Positions 4,375 to 36,939 of a DNA stretch of 64,000 nt are shown here, one piece after another (positions within the stretch are counted from its first letter, which is position 1; every line of letters begins with the position of its first letter). Under the pieces are notes generated by a model. It was not told the origin of the DNA, did not search any database, and saw only the letters and a list, made by a program, of their open reading frames with translations. The position numbers and the translations under genes were made by a program. The stretch lies in the sequence record NC_054929.1; one strand, given 5' to 3'. The DNA comes from Escherichia phage PE37.

Positions 4375-7515
<3,141 letters not shown>

Positions 7516-28410: not shown

Positions 28411-28695
28411 ATGAAAACTTATCAAGAATTCACTTCAACGACTAACGCTTCTACTTTGACTGAAGCGACCCTTACTTCTGAAGTTATTAAAGCAAACAAA
28501 GGACGTGAAGGTAAACCGATGATTAGCCTGGTTGATGGCGAAGAAATCAAAGGTACTGTTTACCTAGGTGATGGGTGGTCTGCTAAAAAGGATGGTGCTA
28601 CAATCGTTATCTCTCCTGCTGAAGAAACTGCTTTGTTTAAAGCCAAGCATATTTCAGTAGCTCAGCTTAAAATTATTGCTAAAAATCTTTTGTAA
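28411..28695 (+). CDS. ipI: internal protein I-like, capsid-targeted
   Basis: N-terminal MKTYQEFTSTT capsid targeting sequence; position after 57B; early promoter upstream. Confidence 0.7.
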   Translation: MKTYQEFTSTTNASTLTEATLTSEVIKANKGREGKPMISLVDGEEIKGTVYLGDGWSAKKDGATIVISPAEETALFKAKHISVAQLKIIAKNLL

Positions 28696-29726: not shown

Positions 29727-29799
29727 TGGGAATTAGCCAAGTTGGTAAGGCACTGGATTTTGATTCCAGGATGCAAAGGTTCGAGTCCTTTATTCCCAG
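29727..29799 (+). tRNA. tRNA-Gln (anticodon UUG)
   Basis: Cloverleaf folded by eye: acceptor TGGGAAT/ATTCCCA, anticodon loop TTTTGAT, T-arm GGTTCGAGTCC; CCA not encoded. Confidence 0.8.
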
Positions 29800-29800
29800 C

Positions 29801-29887
29801 GCGAGAATGGTCAAATTGGTAAAGGCACAGCACTTAAAATGCTGCGGAATGATTTCCTTGTGGGTTCGAGTCCCACTTCTCGCACCA
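29801..29887 (+). tRNA. tRNA-Leu (anticodon UAA), type II
   Basis: Acceptor GCGAGAA/TTCTCGC, loop CTTAAAA, long variable arm, CCA encoded. Confidence 0.85.
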
Positions 29888-29892
29888 AATTT

Positions 29893-29966
<74 letters not shown>

Positions 29967-29976
29967 ATTTAATTTA

Positions 29977-30050
29977 CTCCGTGTAGCTCAGTTTGGTAGA
30001 GCGCCTGATTTGGGATCAGGAGGTCCAAGGTTCAAATCCTTGTATGGAGA
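29977..30050 (+). tRNA. tRNA-Pro (anticodon UGG)
   Basis: Anticodon arm CCTGA-TTTGGGA-TCAGG, T-arm CAAGGTTCAAATCCTTG; acceptor has G-U pairs; CCA not encoded. Confidence 0.8.
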
Positions 30051-30052
30051 CT

Positions 30053-30142
30053 GGAGGCGTGGCAGAGTGGTTTAATGCACCGGTCTTGAAAACCGGCAGT
30101 CGCTCCGGCGACTCATAGGTTCAAATCCTATCGCCTCCGCCA
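30053..30142 (+). tRNA. tRNA-Ser (anticodon UGA), type II
   Basis: Acceptor GGAGGCG/CGCCTCC, loop CTTGAAA, long variable arm, CCA encoded. Confidence 0.85.
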
Positions 30143-30147
30143 GTTTT

Positions 30148-30223
30148 GCTGATTTAGCTCAGTAGGTAGAGCAACTCACTTGTAATGAGAAGGTCGGCGG
30201 TTCGATTCCGTCAATCAGCACCA
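30148..30223 (+). tRNA. tRNA-Thr (anticodon UGU)
   Basis: Acceptor GCTGATT/AATCAGC, loop CTTGTAA, CCA encoded. Confidence 0.85.
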
Positions 30224-30224
30224 A

Positions 30225-30299
30225 GGCCCTGTAGCTGGAAGGTTCAAGCAAGCGACTCATAATCGCCAGATGGTGGTTCAATTCCACCCAGGGCCACCA
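30225..30299 (+). tRNA. tRNA with CAU anticodon (Ile2 lysidine-type, or Met)
   Basis: Acceptor GGCCCTG/CAGGGCC, loop CTCATAA, CCA encoded; T4 tRNA-Ile counterpart by position. Confidence 0.8.
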
Positions 30300-30308
30300 A
30301 ATTAATTT

Positions 30309-30395
30309 GGGGAGTTATCCCGTAGAGGTAGCGGTGTGGACTGTAAATCCATTGTCATTGCGACTCGGGTGGTTCGACTCCATCACTCCCCACCA
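30309..30395 (+). tRNA. tRNA-Tyr-like (anticodon GUA), type II
   Basis: Acceptor GGGGAGT/ACTCCCC, anticodon arm GTGGA-CTGTAAA-TCCAT, variable arm with GTC/GAC stem, T-arm GGTGGTTCGACTCCATC, CCA encoded; D-arm imperfect. Confidence 0.6.
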
Positions 30396-30399
30396 ATTT

Positions 30400-30474
30400 G
30401 GATGTGTAGCTCAATGGCAGAGCGATCGCCTGTTAAGCGATTGGTTATAGGTTCGAATCCTATCACGTCCGCCA
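30400..30474 (+). tRNA. tRNA-Asn (anticodon GUU)
   Basis: Acceptor GGATGTG/CACGTCC, anticodon arm ATCGC-CTGTTAA-GCGAT, T-arm ATAGGTTCGAATCCTAT, CCA encoded. Confidence 0.8.
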
Positions 30475-30478
30475 AATC

Positions 30479-30554
30479 CGAGGCATAGCTCAGAAGGAAG
30501 AGCAAGGACCTTCTAAGTCCTAGGTCGTAGGTTCGATCCCTACTGCCTCGACCA
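30479..30554 (+). tRNA. tRNA-Arg (anticodon UCU)
   Basis: Acceptor CGAGGCA/TGCCTCG, D-stem GCTC/GAGC, anticodon arm AGGAC-CTTCTAA-GTCCT, CCA encoded. Confidence 0.85.
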
Positions 30555-31310: not shown

Positions 31311-31784
31311 ATGAAATCATATACTCAATTTTTAAATGAAGCGGTGTTAAATGAAGCATCTAGCACCGAAATTCAAGCTGTCGCAAAAGCAGCCATTGCA
31401 GCGGGTAAATATTCTTACAAAGATGCTTCTGATGAATCGCGATTCCAGTTTGCACGCGACATGAAAGCGGAAGGATTTACGGGAAATGCAGTTAGTATGG
31501 CCTGGAAAAGTTTAGTTGCTACTGGCGCTGCTTTTGCAAAGGCTTCGGGTAAACCTGCTCCTAAAGCAGATCCTAAAGTCGCACAAGAGAAAAATATTGT
31601 TAAAGGAATTATCTCCAAATATGAAGCTATCCTTAAAGAGCTTTTAGTAATCAAAACTGAAGGCCAAAAACTAGCTCGTGCTTATAGTTTCAAAGATAAC
31701 CCACATGCTCACTCTCTTGAGTATGTTGAAGACATCCAAAAAATTATTAAAGACCGCATTTGGTCTGCTAAACAAATCAAATAA
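31311..31784 (+). CDS. capsid-targeted internal-protein candidate
   Basis: 157 aa; N-terminus MKSYTQFLNEA resembles the internal-protein capsid targeting sequence; late promoter upstream. Confidence 0.65.
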   Translation: MKSYTQFLNEAVLNEASSTEIQAVAKAAIAAGKYSYKDASDESRFQFARDMKAEGFTGNAVSMAWKSLVATGAAFAKASGKPAPKADPKVAQEKNIVKGIISKYEAILKELLVIKTEGQKLARAYSFKDNPHAHSLEYVEDIQKIIKDRIWSAKQIK

Positions 31785-32535: not shown

Positions 32536-32578
32536 TACTCTCATGGATTTTAAATCTTAATTAACCTAAGGAAATACT

Positions 32579-33172
32579 ATGAACACACTGAAGAAAATTG
32601 TTGAGTTTATTCGCACTAAACTTGGTTCTGCTATGGCTAAAAATCTATCTGTTGAAGAGCAGTATACTGCCGCAGCAGCAAAATTGCTTGATAAAATTAA
32701 AGATCTAAAAACTGCTTCTGTTAAATCTATTAATGAAGAAAAGCGTATTCGTGAACTTATTGTCGAAAAGAATAAGCAGGCCGAATCAAAAGAGCGTGAA
32801 ATTCGCAAGCTCCTTTCGGAAGGTCAAGATGTAACAATGCATGCTAAACTTGGTTTACTATATCGTCGAACAGCTGAGCAGTTGACTACTAAAGCTGATG
32901 GTTATGCTGAAATGCGAATTGAAATCGCCAAGAAAGTAGTTGAGTTAGATGATGCTCGCCAAGAACTTGCAGTTAAATTGGAATATATCCGTGAAACTCG
33001 TGCAGCGAATGCCCTTGGAATTAGTACTGCCGATGATGTAGTTGAAATTGCAGCGCTGACTAAGGTTGATATTGAAGATACTCTTGCTCGAGTTGAAACC
33101 TTTAACGGTAATATTTCTGGGGTTGAAACCACCTCTGCCGATGTTCAGGAATATATTAATTCTCTGAAATAA
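32579..33172 (+). CDS. coiled-coil protein, possible PspA/IM30-like
   Basis: 197 aa, predicted almost entirely helical; N-terminus loosely resembles PspA. Confidence 0.6.
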
Positions 33173-33178
33173 TGATAA

Positions 33179-33192
33179 GGGGCTTCGGCCCC
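33179..33192 (+). other. UUCG-tetraloop hairpin
   Basis: GGGGCTTCGGCCCC directly after stop codon, no U-run. Confidence 0.5.
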
Positions 33193-33213
33193 TATTACTT
33201 GGAGTAAGTAGGA

Positions 33214-33822
33214 ATGAAAATGCAAAGTGATTTCAATTCAATGTTTGAAGAGTTCCAAAGACAGGTTGATGTTCCAGACCAATTATTAAATGCTCTTAAA
33301 CGTATGGCAGAAGGACGTAATTATTATTGGGGTTCTTCATATGAAACTGTTGAAAGTCTTTCTGGAAGATTTTCTAGAGGTAAAAAGTCTTTAATACGTC
33401 CTGGAATACTTATTAACAGTATTGAATCAATTCATTTATTAACATGCGATTTTGACGTTGAATTTACTGATTTTGTTTCTCCTGAATGGACGGTCTGTTA
33501 TTTAAACGACGATTATGATTATCTTGGCGTTTATAGTTTAAGTGATGCATGGTTTAAACGTAATTTACAAAAGTCAAATTTATTCTATATTGATACTACT
33601 GTAAAATTTCAGGGCAAGAAATATTTCTTTACTCTTATAGTTGACTCTGAAACAAAATATGAAAATAAACGTATTCTTAGTAAAAAGAATATCTTAACTA
33701 CTGTCGATGATCTTTTTGATAAATTCGTAGAAAATCCCAATTTTGAAAGCGATTTATTATTAGAAAAATTTGTTAAGGAATGTAGAGAATATGTCAAAAC
33801 CATCACTATACCTTCCAAGTAA
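33214..33822 (+). CDS. hypothetical protein
   Basis: 202 aa ORF, RBS GGAGTAAGTAGGA. Confidence 0.6.
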   Translation: MKMQSDFNSMFEEFQRQVDVPDQLLNALKRMAEGRNYYWGSSYETVESLSGRFSRGKKSLIRPGILINSIESIHLLTCDFDVEFTDFVSPEWTVCYLNDDYDYLGVYSLSDAWFKRNLQKSNLFYIDTTVKFQGKKYFFTLIVDSETKYENKRILSKKNILTTVDDLFDKFVENPNFESDLLLEKFVKECREYVKTITIPSK

Positions 33823-34183
33823 ACCGTTGAAGTATGAATTAAAGCGTCAGATAATTTCTACTGATGTGTTAATAGGTCCTGTGGTAGCTGTATCATTTGT
33901 GATTCTGCTGATTGCTGGAATGGTTATAGACGTTATGACTGATATTGGATCTAATACAATATTTGCGTCAACGCTAATTCTTCCATTGGTAGTTCCGCTT
34001 TTATTAGTACCTATAAATTGGATAGGATATTGGTATCAAGGAAGACACTATCGTAAACGTGTACGTGATTGGAAAGCCCAGTGCAAAAAGATTAAAAAAG
34101 AACATCAGCTTAAACTTGCTGCGTATGAATTTGATGAAATTATGAAATTTGTTAAGGAATCACGATGCAAAAGCCAAAACTAA
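33791..34183 (+). CDS. 2-TM membrane protein, paralog 1
   Basis: Start at MSKPSLYLP; two hydrophobic helices; C-terminus FVKESRCK. Confidence 0.55.
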   Translation: MSKPSLYLPSKPLKYELKRQIISTDVLIGPVVAVSFVILLIAGMVIDVMTDIGSNTIFASTLILPLVVPLLLVPINWIGYWYQGRHYRKRVRDWKAQCKKIKKEHQLKLAAYEFDEIMKFVKESRCKSQN

Positions 34184-34527
34184 ATAAAGCCAAATATTCG
34201 TTTCCAGAGGCACTATTAATTCTTGCCGTATCAGCATTTACAGCTCTTGCGGGTAGTCTTATTGGATTATTAATTGACTGTTTTATTTTAAACATCGACG
34301 GCACAGTAATTATAACAGAGGTTTGGAGTGAACTTCGTTATACTATAGCGATTTCATTATTTTCATTCTTTGGTACCATGTTATATTTTCATTATGATAA
34401 TTTTAAAATAAATTGGCAAAGAAAAAAAGATTACAAAATACAATTAAAAGAATATAATAGCTACATGTCTTATATTGAAAAAGAATCAATGGAAGAGTTT
34501 GTGAGTGATTGTAGGAAAATTAAATGA
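34165..34527 (+). CDS. 2-TM membrane protein, paralog 2
   Basis: 120 aa, two TM helices, C-terminus FVSDCRKIK, ATGA overlap with next gene. Confidence 0.55.
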   Translation: MQKPKLNKAKYSFPEALLILAVSAFTALAGSLIGLLIDCFILNIDGTVIITEVWSELRYTIAISLFSFFGTMLYFHYDNFKINWQRKKDYKIQLKEYNSYMSYIEKESMEEFVSDCRKIK

Positions 34528-35012
34528 TTTTAAAAACTCGCTGGTATGATTTAGATGACGGGGATGATGGCATTTCAGTTAATAGAGTTGACTGGAATGG
34601 CTGTTCCGAAGATATGAAAAATTTGCTGATTAGGGAGTTTAGAATGGGATATCAACCAGTTAAGCCATCTACTGCAACAGATGATAAATTCGTGTGTATT
34701 CATAATGGTCGCGCTAAATTAACGAACGCTGATTGGTTCACAGATAAAATTATGATTCTGTGGTATATTATTAGTCTTCCTGTGACATCATTCGTATTTT
34801 ACTTTTTTATAAAAAATCCAATGGACAGAATAGGAGATTGGATTCTTTTAACCATACTTGTTAATATTTTTACTGCAGCAATATTATCTGGGATATGGTA
34901 CACGTTCATTGAAATGCCATGGCGTTTACGCAGACAACAAAAGATTTTTGATGAAAAGAAATATACCCAAAATTTAAATAGCTTTATCACTGAATGCAGG
35001 AAATTAAAATGA
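34524..35012 (+). CDS. 2-TM membrane protein, paralog 3
   Basis: 162 aa, two TM helices, C-terminus FITECRKLK, ATGA overlap with nudE. Confidence 0.55.
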   Translation: MILKTRWYDLDDGDDGISVNRVDWNGCSEDMKNLLIREFRMGYQPVKPSTATDDKFVCIHNGRAKLTNADWFTDKIMILWYIISLPVTSFVFYFFIKNPMDRIGDWILLTILVNIFTAAILSGIWYTFIEMPWRLRRQQKIFDEKKYTQNLNSFITECRKLK

Positions 35013-35449: not shown

Positions 35450-35980
<531 letters not shown>

Positions 35981-36039: not shown

Positions 36040-36456
36040 ATGACTCGTATTAATTTGACTTTAGTATCTGAACTTGCTGATCAACATTTAATCGCAGAAT
36101 ACCGTGAATTGCCACGTGTTTTTGGTATAGTTCGTAAACATGTGGCAAATGGTAAACGGGTTAAAGATTTTAAAATATCTTCCGAGTTTATTTTAGGTTC
36201 TGGTCATGTTACGTTCTTTTACGATAAGTTAGAATTTTTGCGAAAGCGTCAATCAGACATTATAACGGAATGCTTAAAACGCGGGTTTAGTATAAAAGAT
36301 ACTGAAGTTCCTGACATCGGCGATATTCCAGCAGAATGGAAAAATGATTATAATCCATGCAAATCAGCTATTAAATTGAGTCAACAACGACTCAATGAAA
36401 AAATTTTAATGAAGCCACACTGGTACAAGTATTACGGCAAAAATATTTACATTTAA
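36040..36456 (+). CDS. denV: endonuclease V (pyrimidine dimer glycosylase) DenV
   Basis: 138 aa, [17 protein letters not shown]..., close to T4 DenV from memory. Confidence 0.95.
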
Positions 36457-36465
36457 AGGAAACAC

Positions 36466-36939
36466 ATGAAAACATATCAAGAATTTATTACTGAAGCAGC
36501 TATTAATTCTCAAATTATTGCTGAATCTTTTACTGATCTTTTGAAATTTAAAAAAGGTCAAAAAATCACTGCTGTATTGGATGATGGTACAGAAGTTGAG
36601 ATGGATGTACAGGGATATAATTATGCAGTAGATGGAAAACTGTATAATAAATCTCATGCTAAATTTGATTCATTTGACGACTTTGTTAATACAGTTGAAG
36701 ATGAAAAAACTCGTCGATCCATTGCAACTGGTGATGCTAAGGTTCTTATGGCACATGGTCATGAACGCATTCGCGCTAAACAGAATAAAATGGGCGAAGA
36801 TAATTTCGCATTAGTTGGTTATCAATCTGGTAAACAAACTTATGGTTATCAGCGTACTGCTACCATGTATAATAAAAATGGTAAAATTGCCTTTGTGAAT
36901 AGTAAGGGTTCTATTCAGTACGTTAAATCGTTCAAATAA
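36466..36939 (+). CDS. internal protein (ipII/ipIII-position), capsid-targeted
   Basis: 157 aa, N-terminal MKTYQEFITEA capsid targeting sequence, basic C-terminal region. Confidence 0.7.
   Translation: MKTYQEFITEAAINSQIIAESFTDLLKFKKGQKITAVLDDGTEVEMDVQGYNYAVDGKLYNKSHAKFDSFDDFVNTVEDEKTRRSIATGDAKVLMAHGHERIRAKQNKMGEDNFALVGYQSGKQTYGYQRTATMYNKNGKIAFVNSKGSIQYVKSFK

What the first reader, a model, noticed from the sequence alone, without database searches (positions are those of the whole stretch)
32579..33172. 197-aa all-helical coiled-coil protein with PspA/IM30-like character
The protein is predicted helical throughout, and its N-terminal region ([28 protein letters not shown]...) loosely resembles the N-terminal amphipathic helix and first coiled coil of PspA/Vipp1 membrane-stress proteins. 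A phage-encoded PspA-like protein next to a membrane-protein cluster and the lysis enzyme could modulate envelope stress or lysis timing. The similarity is weak and judged by eye only.
Basis: inference. Interest (0 to 1): 0.4.

Follow-up and report, generated by a model that had tools for sequence, protein, structure and literature searches.

The report
T4 e.6 is a PspA homologue
This 197-residue protein is gene e.6 of T4-type phages, a very diverged relative of the bacterial membrane-repair protein PspA/Vipp1, and it is always encoded just upstream of small proteins sharing one short tail, which suggests these phages carry their own membrane-maintenance kit.

The parts
32568..32572 (+). Shine-Dalgarno sequence (AAGGA) of e.6, 6 nt before the ATG
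   Evidence: Read directly from the sequence.
32579..33172 (+). e.6 coding sequence (197 aa + stop): diverged PspA/IM30-family protein
   Evidence: ORF. 100% identical to T4 msp3/e.6. phrog_1203 at E=8e-88. PspA homology. 20 synonymous and 0 non-synonymous codon differences from T4.
32582..32644 (+). Residues 2-22: N-terminal basic amphipathic helix, counterpart of PspA/Vipp1 helix alpha0
   Evidence: Helices 2-14 and 16-22 in the model, at low confidence. Aligned residue-for-residue with PspA 1-22. Hydrophobic moment 0.45, against 0.49 for PspA and 0.61 for Vipp1, but not significant against shuffles (p=0.11).
32651..33013 (+). Residues 25-145: long antiparallel helical hairpin (25-80 and 86-145), counterpart of PspA alpha1 and alpha2/3
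   Evidence: AlphaFold2 pLDDT 85-97. Collinear alignment with the PspA/Vipp1 hairpin. Foldseek match to Vipp1 structures.
33029..33169 (+). Residues 151-197: short C-terminal helices (151-170, 186-196), counterpart of alpha4/alpha5. Includes the invariant T174-F175 (ARVETF, aligned with PspA ARFESF) and the conserved end ...EYINSLK
   Evidence: conservation; helices, low confidence in 163-184; alignment up to residue 176; the C-terminal helix resembles the neighbours' tail motif, weakly.
33178..33193 (+). GC-rich UUCG-tetraloop hairpin just after the e.6 stop codon. No T-run follows on the + strand
   Evidence: Annotated as a putative stem-loop in the T4 record L13089. Function not tested.
33214..33822 (+). 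e.5 (202 aa, soluble): first tail-motif protein. Tail FVKECR at residues 186-191 (33769-33786)
   Evidence: phrog_2607, unknown function. No Pfam or PADLOC hit.
33791..34183 (+). e.4 (130 aa from the ATG, 2 predicted TM segments). Tail FVKESR at residues 120-125 (34148-34165)
   Evidence: phrog_2604.
34165..34527 (+). e.3 (120 aa, membrane protein). Tail FVSDCR at residues 112-117 (34498-34515)
   Evidence: phrog_2330.
34524..35012 (+). e.2 (162 aa here, 2 predicted TM segments). Tail FITECR at residues 154-159 (34983-35000)
   Evidence: phrog_2203, 'membrane protein'.

Best explanation
The ORF is gene e.6 of T4-type phages, a highly diverged, phage-specific member of the PspA/IM30(Vipp1) branch of the ESCRT-III superfamily. 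Homology confidence is about 0.9. Proposed mechanism: e.6 is made from early transcripts as a soluble cytoplasmic protein. It binds the cytoplasmic face of the inner membrane through its N-terminal basic amphipathic helix, and it self-assembles through its long alpha1-alpha2/3 hairpin, as PspA and Vipp1 do. This would seal or stabilise the membrane and preserve proton-motive force during infection, when the host's own psp operon is only weakly induced. It does not act alone. The genes directly downstream (a soluble e.5-type protein, then one to five small membrane proteins; in this window e.5, e.4, e.3 and e.2) are otherwise unrelated. They all end in the same short, basic, amphipathic, probably cytoplasmic helix, L-x-x-F-[IV]-x-x-C-[RK], or S-I-[IV]-x-x-A-R in Vi01-like phages. 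I infer that this tail is a docking peptide that ties these proteins to the e.6 assembly. In that role they would be analogous to, but not homologous with, the PspB/PspC or LiaI anchors of bacterial PspA and LiaH. Shown here: the homology, the conserved gene module and tail motif, early expression, and dispensability in the laboratory. Inferred: membrane binding, polymerisation, tail docking and the physiological role.
For: Homology: P0188 (39.0 bits) and P0186 (35.1 bits) exceed the PF04012 gathering score of 33.9, in register (protein 6-146 against profile 2-143); P0189 reaches E=1e-4. These proteins are e.6 orthologues: E about 1e-20 against the e.6 profile in an exhaustive search of 1.84 billion representatives, and they are encoded in phage contigs with uvsX, gene 41 and ligase. 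hhalign of the family against PspA/Vipp1 gives 92.9%, E=3.7e-7, 170 collinear columns. Without the bridge members it gives 88.5%, E=2.8e-6. Reversed profiles reach at most 1.5%, and column-shuffled profiles score at most 17 against 45-50. hmmsearch of profile A2 against PDB: top eight hits are Vipp1/PspA, E 1e-4 to 1.5e-3, residues 1-146 against 1-147. Foldseek: top eight PDB hits are Vipp1, then archaeal CdvB2. The model has the alpha0 / hairpin / alpha4-5 layout. Module: e.6 occupies four different genome contexts but is always followed by tail-motif ORFs. A motif defined on T4 alone occurs in 16/50 ORFs at +1..+3, against 11/460 elsewhere and 0/132 upstream (Fisher p=3.9e-11); at +1 it is 11/17, or 14/17 with a looser motif. 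The 48 tail proteins fall into 29 unrelated body clusters. The tail window ranks in the top 1-10% of conserved windows within five homologous clusters. Tails lie in K/R-rich C-terminal segments in 23/25 membrane members. In the 64-kb window the motif marks only e.5-e.2 plus one chance hit. Expression: e.6 RNA early and protein middle; e.5, e.4, e.3 and e.2 also early transcripts detected as proteins (PMC9697503 supplements). Host psp is only weakly induced by T4 but strongly by PhiX174 (PMC12795941).
Confidence: 0.55

Rival explanations
1. e.6 is a PspA mimic that antagonises or exploits host PspA-dependent processes rather than protecting the membrane. It could bind PspF, as PspA does, to keep the host psp operon off. 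It could co-assemble with and poison host PspA. Or it could act as a decoy for immune systems that use PspA as a platform, such as type II CBASS, whose cyclase is conjugated to PspA.
For: e.6 is homologous to the PspA region (residues 1-144) that forms the hairpin. Host psp is only weakly induced during T4 infection (PMC12795941). A CBASS cyclase is conjugated exclusively to PspA and released on infection (PMC11153139). Early expression and lack of a laboratory phenotype are typical of counter-defence genes.
Against: About 14% identity to E. coli PspA makes co-assembly or PspF binding uncertain. No PADLOC or anti-defence signature was found. The conserved array of membrane and soluble tail proteins is not explained by a simple decoy. 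The CBASS-PspA link was shown in Bacillus, not for T4 hosts.
Confidence: 0.15
2. e.6 and its tail-motif partners remodel the inner membrane for a specific phage purpose other than general repair, for example resealing after DNA injection, superinfection exclusion or resistance to lysis from without, or stabilising the membrane against premature holin triggering during lysis inhibition.
For: PspA/Vipp1/ESCRT-III proteins remodel as well as stabilise membranes (established knowledge; reviews PMC7619361 and PMC9950537 found). Several partners are small membrane proteins. Early expression fits injection-site repair or exclusion. In this window the module lies 2.3 kb upstream of lysozyme e.
Against: Adjacency to e or other lysis genes is not conserved. 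The early transcript class does not fit a late lysis-timing function. No phenotype has been reported, and knock-down is neutral in plaque or liquid fitness.
Confidence: 0.2
3. e.6 is just a generic coiled-coil protein (a structural, scaffolding or 'host specificity' protein, as some records call it), and the PspA similarity is a compositional artefact.
Against: Reversed and shuffled profile controls fail. Among all PDB coiled coils the top eight HMMER hits and the top eight Foldseek hits are specifically Vipp1/PspA, aligned from residue 1 in register. Family members pass the curated Pfam threshold. Early or middle expression argues against a virion role. The alternative names carry no supporting evidence in the records.
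Confidence: 0.05

Closest known systems
PspA (E. coli phage shock protein A; Pfam PF04012 PspA_IM30)
   Same: Collinear alignment over about 170 residues: N-terminal amphipathic helix, alpha1-alpha2/3 hairpin, and the ARFESF / ARVETF segment. Similar size (197 against 222 aa). No Cys, essentially no Pro or Trp, balanced charge.
   Different: About 14% identity. T4 e.6 itself is below Pfam detection. The 'EDP' linker is not conserved. It is encoded by a lytic phage, transcribed early from phage promoters rather than sigma54/PspF. It has no PspB, PspC or PspF neighbours. Its partners are a different, phage-specific set of tail-motif proteins.
Vipp1/IM30 of cyanobacteria and chloroplasts (e.g. 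PDB 7O3W, 6ZVR, 8QFV)
   Same: Best-scoring solved relatives by both sequence profile (E=1e-4, residues 1-146 against 1-147) and Foldseek (top eight hits). Same helix order.
   Different: Vipp1 has an extra C-terminal helix (alpha6) and is about 260 aa. It functions in thylakoid biogenesis. The e.6 C-terminal part (163-184) is predicted with low confidence.
LiaH-LiaI and PspA-PspB/PspC anchor systems
   Same: A PspA-family protein is encoded next to small membrane proteins that, in the known systems, recruit it to the membrane. Here e.6 is followed by small membrane proteins with 1-3 TM segments and cytoplasmic, basic C-terminal tails.
   Different: There is no sequence relationship. The apparent resemblance of the tails to the PspC C-terminus (MERYVTSD against MEEFVSDC) is not significant: 25% of background proteins score as well. 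The phage module also includes a soluble tail-bearing protein, and the number of partners varies from 1 to more than 5.
ESCRT-III (Snf7/CHMP, archaeal CdvB)
   Different: No Vps4/MIT partner. Sequence similarity is detectable only to the PspA/Vipp1 branch.
Phage proteins already labelled PspA-like (Acinetobacter phage vB_AbaM_ME3 'PspA/IM30 family protein'; Salmonella phage SeF3a 'shock protein A', phrog_1203)
   Same: They show that phage-borne PspA-family genes exist at annotation level. The SeF3a protein belongs to the same PHROG as e.6 and has the same downstream membrane protein plus small ORF.
   Different: These are isolated database labels without analysis. T4 e.6 and more than 1,000 Straboviridae orthologues remain 'hypothetical' or mislabelled. 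PHROGs v4 lists phrog_1203 as unknown function.

Membership tests
PspA/IM30 family (Pfam PF04012) | Sequence match to the family profile above the curated threshold | tested here: inconclusive
   T4 e.6 itself has no hit at E<=10. Two of 41 family members pass (39.0 and 35.1 bits against a cut-off of 33.9) and a third reaches E=1e-4. Membership of T4 e.6 is therefore transitive: those members match the e.6 profile at E about 1e-20.
PspA/IM30 family (Pfam PF04012) | Profile-profile and profile-sequence similarity to bona fide PspA/Vipp1 that is collinear from the N-terminus | tested here: met
   hhalign gives 92.9%, E=3.7e-7, 170 columns, and 88.5% without the bridge sequences; reversed and shuffled controls are negative. 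hmmsearch of A2 against PDB puts Vipp1/PspA in the top eight, E 1e-4 to 1.5e-3.
PspA/IM30 family (Pfam PF04012) | N-terminal amphipathic membrane-binding helix (alpha0) | tested here: inconclusive
   A helix is predicted at residues 2-22 but with pLDDT about 40. The hydrophobic moment of 0.45 is comparable to PspA (0.49), but 11% of shuffles reach it.
PspA/IM30 family (Pfam PF04012) | Long alpha1-alpha2/3 helical hairpin followed by shorter alpha4/alpha5 helices | tested here: met
PspA/IM30 family (Pfam PF04012) | Self-assembly into rings or rods, and binding and protection of membranes | not testable with these tools
   Needs purified protein (EM, liposome binding and leakage assays) or multimer structure prediction.
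Bacterial Psp system (PspF-PspABC) | Co-occurrence with PspB/PspC membrane partners and the PspF regulator | tested here: not met
   The E. coli operon has PspF, PspB, PspC and PspD next to PspA. The phage neighbours have no Pfam or PADLOC family, and the PspC-tail resemblance is not significant. e.6 is therefore a PspA homologue but not part of a canonical Psp system.
ESCRT-III superfamily | ESCRT-III core fold (hairpin plus following helices) recognisable by structure comparison | tested here: inconclusive
Spanin / lysis proteins (phrog_1267 Rz-like) | Significant match to a lysis-protein profile, membrane anchor, conserved linkage to lysis genes | tested here: not met
   Only E=0.25 to phrog_1267. 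No TM segment. Linkage to lysozyme is not conserved.

The most novel reading that the evidence does not exclude
T4-like (Straboviridae) and Vi01-like (Ackermannviridae) phages carry a self-contained viral ESCRT-III/PspA-type system. It would consist of a PspA-like polymer (e.6) plus a fast-evolving, variable array of soluble and membrane adaptor proteins. These would plug into the polymer through one shared C-terminal docking helix, possibly by mimicking the polymer's own alpha5 helix. The system would let the phage control inner-membrane integrity, or counter membrane-depolarising abortive-infection defences, independently of the silenced host Psp response.
Probability: 0.3. Interest if true: 0.8.

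Novelty: new variant of a known kind. Interest (0 to 1): 0.6.

Why it matters
PspA was named for its induction by phage, yet the best-studied lytic phage turns out to encode its own diverged copy, conserved in more than 1,000 T4-like and Vi01-like genomes and still listed as unknown function in recent T4 functional-genomics annotation. If the inferred mechanism holds, it assigns a function to a block of five T4 'dark matter' genes (e.2-e.6). It adds a viral branch, with a new partner-recruitment principle (a shared C-terminal tail), to the PspA/Vipp1/ESCRT-III superfamily. It also gives a tractable model for how a lytic phage keeps the host membrane energised after shutting off host stress responses, and for how phages might resist membrane-targeting abortive-infection systems. 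All of this can be tested directly with T4 genetics.

Tried and rejected
1. A direct Pfam scan of T4 e.6 gave no PspA hit, only weak coiled-coil noise. The close-family profile alone was also insufficient: Vipp1 at E about 1-2, hhalign 10.8%.
2. An exhaustive HMMER search with the close profile found only 45 representative clusters, all about 200 aa, and no bacterial PspA at E<=1e-3. The family is small and phage-restricted.
4. The idea that the neighbours' tails resemble the PspA-binding C-terminus of host PspC (recalled from memory, with the sequence verified) is rejected. On a tail PSSM, 25% of background proteins score at least as well as PspC.
5. The idea that the tails mimic e.6's own C-terminal helix has only weak support: T4 at the 95.7th percentile, the family median at about the 80th, and non-independent sequences. 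I keep it as speculation.
6. The amphipathicity of alpha0 is not significant against shuffles.
7. A conserved orthologous partner at +1: T4 e.5 and the Vi01-type +1 protein share no BLAST similarity, and the bodies fall into 29 clusters. Only the tail is shared.
8. PADLOC and Pfam scans of e.6 and its neighbours found nothing.
9. The search for related loci with the broad alignment failed because it lacks a conserved stretch, and queries P0180 and P0196 returned no IMG/VR loci.
10. Literature searches found no paper on e.6 function or on a T4 PspA homologue. Two PSP/ESCRT-III evolution papers do not discuss phage-encoded PspA.
11. No convincing sigma70-type promoter was found immediately upstream of e.6 by the consensus scan. 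Timing was taken from published omics instead.

Full report
**1. The observation**

The ORF exists exactly as described. It is an ATG-initiated frame of 197 codons at 32579-33172(+). It is preceded by AAGGA at 32568-32572 and followed by a GGGGC-UUCG-GCCCC hairpin at 33178-33193.

The surrounding genes identify a T4-type phage: lysozyme e at 35486, denV at 36040, a Nudix gene at 34994, several proteins starting MKTYQEF, and ten tRNA genes at 29727-30554. The window is not T4 itself. The best 6-kb match in the phage collection is 96.8% identical (phage EO1), and identity to the T4 record L13089 is 93-95%.

The encoded protein is nevertheless 100% identical to T4 msp3, now called e.6. The two genes differ at 20 codons, all synonymous, which is direct evidence of purifying selection. 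Homologues occur in 1,098 phage records. The family is PHROG 1203, listed as 'unknown function'.

AlphaFold2 with a 31-sequence alignment (mean pLDDT 74.7) predicts about 83% helix:
- a short N-terminal helix (2-22, low confidence);
- a long antiparallel hairpin (25-80 and 86-145, pLDDT 85-97);
- shorter C-terminal helices (151-170, 186-196) around a low-confidence stretch.

**2. Is it PspA-like?**

Single-sequence methods fail. Pfam gives no PF04012 hit for T4 e.6. A profile of close relatives (A1) finds Vipp1 only at E about 1-2, though aligned from residue 4 to 142 in register. An exhaustive HMMER search of 1.84 billion representative proteins with that profile finds only 45 clusters, all about 200 residues.

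Those distant members provide the bridge. When all 41 sequences of a broad alignment (A2) are scanned individually, five hit PF04012. P0188 (39.0 bits) and P0186 (35.1 bits) lie above the curated cut-off of 33.9, and P0189 reaches E=1e-4, each aligned from its N-terminus to profile positions 2-143. These proteins match the e.6 profile at E about 1e-20. They are encoded in 156-160-kb phage genomes between uvsX/gene 41 and DNA ligase, that is, in Ackermannviridae.

Four further results agree:
- Profile-profile comparison of A2 with a PspA/Vipp1 alignment gives 92.9% probability, E=3.7e-7, over 170 collinear columns (e.6 1-176 against PspA 1-172). This includes the invariant ARVETF segment opposite PspA's ARFESF.
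- Removing the three bridge sequences leaves 88.5% and E=2.8e-6. Reversed profiles give at most 1.5%, and 24 column-shuffled profiles score at most 17, against 45-50 for the real comparison.
- hmmsearch with A2 against all PDB sequences returns Vipp1/PspA as the eight best hits (E 1e-4 to 1.5e-3, residues 1-146 against 1-147), ahead of every other coiled coil in the PDB.
- Foldseek with the model gives Vipp1 as the eight best PDB hits (probability 1.00, E 2e-3 to 1.6e-2), followed by archaeal ESCRT-III CdvB2.

I conclude, at about 0.9 confidence, that e.6 is a highly diverged PspA/IM30 homologue. The evidence is sequence-profile based. The fold is compatible but not decisive.

**3. Surroundings**

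Linkage to lysozyme is not conserved. The gene lies in four different contexts:
- after the tRNA cluster in T4-type phages;
- after gene 31 in Aeromonas phage 65;
- between nrdD and nrdG in RB43 and GAP161;
- between gene 41 and ligase in Vi01-like phages.

What travels with it is the gene array immediately downstream. In 17 de-replicated non-T4 loci (e.6 less than 85% identical), the ORFs after e.6 are mostly unrelated to one another. The 48 proteins form 29 BLAST clusters once the tail is removed. They nonetheless end in the same short motif, consensus L-x-x-F-[IV]-x-x-C-[RK], or S-I-[IV]-x-x-A-R in Vi01-like phages.

Statistics for the motif:
- A motif defined from the four T4 proteins alone, F[VI]xx[CS]R within the last 30 residues, is present in 16/50 ORFs at +1..+3. 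It is present in 11/460 other ORFs and 0/132 ORFs at -1..-8 (Fisher p=3.9e-11).
- At position +1 it occurs in 11/17 loci, or 14/17 with a looser pattern.
- In the whole 64-kb window it marks only e.5, e.4, e.3 and e.2, plus one chance hit.
- Within five clusters of homologous neighbours, the tail window ranks in the top 1-10% of conserved windows.

The typical layout is a soluble protein of 190-315 residues at +1, followed by one to five small proteins with 1-3 predicted TM segments. In 23 of 25 membrane members the tail lies in a long K/R-rich C-terminal segment, consistent with a cytoplasmic location. My TM segmentation was crude.

None of these proteins has a Pfam or PADLOC family, and their PHROGs are of unknown function. 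The loci are related by descent, so the p-values overstate independence. Even so, relocation of the whole block to four genome positions argues for functional linkage.

**4. Expression and phenotype (literature)**

In T4, e.6 (T4p129, P39224) is classed as early RNA / middle protein. e.5 and e.4 are early/early, e.2 is early/middle, and e.3 is early/late. All are detected as proteins (supplements of PMC9697503).

In a genome-wide dCas13d knock-down screen, e.2-e.8 are all 'Not Fit', meaning no fitness effect. The accompanying re-annotation lists e.6 as unknown function, phrog_1203 (supplements of PMC11879866).

Host psp genes are induced strongly by PhiX174 but only weakly or partially by T4 (PMC12795941).

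I found no paper on e.6 function or on a T4 PspA homologue. Two papers on PSP and ESCRT-III evolution do not discuss phage-encoded PspA. At database level there are isolated labels: 'shock protein A' for the phrog_1203 member of Salmonella phage SeF3a, and 'PspA/IM30 family protein' for an Acinetobacter phage protein. Other records call e.6 homologues 'host specificity protein' or 'tail completion protein' without evidence.

**5. Mechanism**

Best explanation (overall confidence 0.55): e.6 is a phage-borne PspA-type protein that binds the cytoplasmic face of the inner membrane through its basic amphipathic N-terminal helix. It assembles through its hairpin and stabilises the membrane and proton-motive force during infection, when the host Psp response is not mounted. 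The downstream tail-motif proteins are its partners. Their shared amphipathic, basic C-terminal helix would be a docking peptide, so that the membrane members anchor or target the e.6 assembly and the soluble member modulates it. This is analogous to, but not homologous with, PspB/PspC or LiaI.

- Shown: homology, module conservation, tail motif, early expression, dispensability in the laboratory.
- Inferred from established PspA/Vipp1 biology: membrane binding, polymerisation, membrane protection.
- Inferred from gene linkage only: tail docking.

A speculative refinement is that the tail mimics e.6's own C-terminal helix (...EYINSLK). This has only weak support.

Rivals:
- a PspA mimic that antagonises host PspF or PspA, or decoys PspA-linked immunity such as type II CBASS (0.15; PMC11153139);
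- a specialised remodelling role in resealing, superinfection exclusion or lysis inhibition (0.2);
- a generic coiled coil (0.05), largely excluded by the controls.

**6. Comparison and novelty**

e.6 works like, and is homologous to, PspA/Vipp1, but it is not part of a canonical Psp system. There is no PspF, PspB or PspC. The apparent similarity of the tails to the PspC C-terminus is not significant. The 'EDP' linker is not conserved, and T4 e.6 itself is below Pfam's threshold.

I classify it as a new variant of a known kind: a viral branch of the PspA/IM30 family with its own, previously undescribed set of tail-bearing partners.

Interest is 0.6. The homology is solid and somewhat surprising for the best-studied phage, and it makes a block of five unknown T4 genes testable. 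The function is still inferred, and there is no phenotype yet.

Noticed in passing
window 33214-35012 (e.5, e.4, e.3, e.2); related loci L002-L053, positions +1..+7 after e.6: Otherwise unrelated ORFs downstream of every e.6 homologue end in a shared tail, L-x-x-F-[IV]-x-x-C-[RK], or S-I-[IV]-x-x-A-R in Ackermannviridae. It is strongly enriched by position (Fisher p=4e-11) and is not described in any library searched.
   Followed up: yes
related loci L012-L046, ORFs at +2..+7 after e.6 (e.g. L014 9980-10435 and 10445-10642; L023 9710-10027 and 10027-10305); none in the window: A second family of small ORFs (55 in the fetched loci) ends exactly in W-[VF]-[ST]-S-S-x(0-3)-C at the C-terminus (e.g. 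...GGWVSSSMEC). They are clustered just beyond the tail-motif array in non-T4 Straboviridae. Function unknown.
   Followed up: partly
window 34524-35012: e.2 is an uninterrupted 162-codon ORF here and matches the full 166-position phrog_2203. The T4 reference and L13089 annotate only 309 nt (102 aa) for e.2/msp7, so the T4 copy appears truncated or split, and the truncated form would lack the C-terminal tail motif.
   Followed up: partly
window 29727-30554: A cluster of ten tRNA genes (Gln, Leu, Gly, Pro, Ser, Thr, Met, Tyr, Asn, Arg). Together with 93-97% DNA identity to T4-group records, this shows the window is a mosaic Tequatrovirus rather than T4 proper, even though its e.6 protein is identical to T4's.
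   Followed up: partly
window 28411-28695, 31311-31784, 36466-36939: Three ORFs begin with MKTYQEF- or MKSYTQF-type N-termini, which resemble (from my own knowledge) the capsid-targeting sequence of T4 internal head proteins (IpI/IpII/IpIII). They are scattered around the tRNA-e region.
   Followed up: no
L005 (RB43, NC_007023.1) 4855-5447: The RB43 reference record has e.6 split: a 54-codon N-terminal piece plus an annotated 97-aa 'e.6'. A second RB43 record (HE981739.1) matches over 95% of the query length. This is either a frameshift error or a pseudogene in one isolate.
   Followed up: no
window 33178-33193: A GGGGC-UUCG-GCCCC tetraloop hairpin lies directly after the e.6 stop codon, without a downstream T-run on the + strand. 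It could be an RNA-stability or processing element between e.6 and e.5.
   Followed up: no
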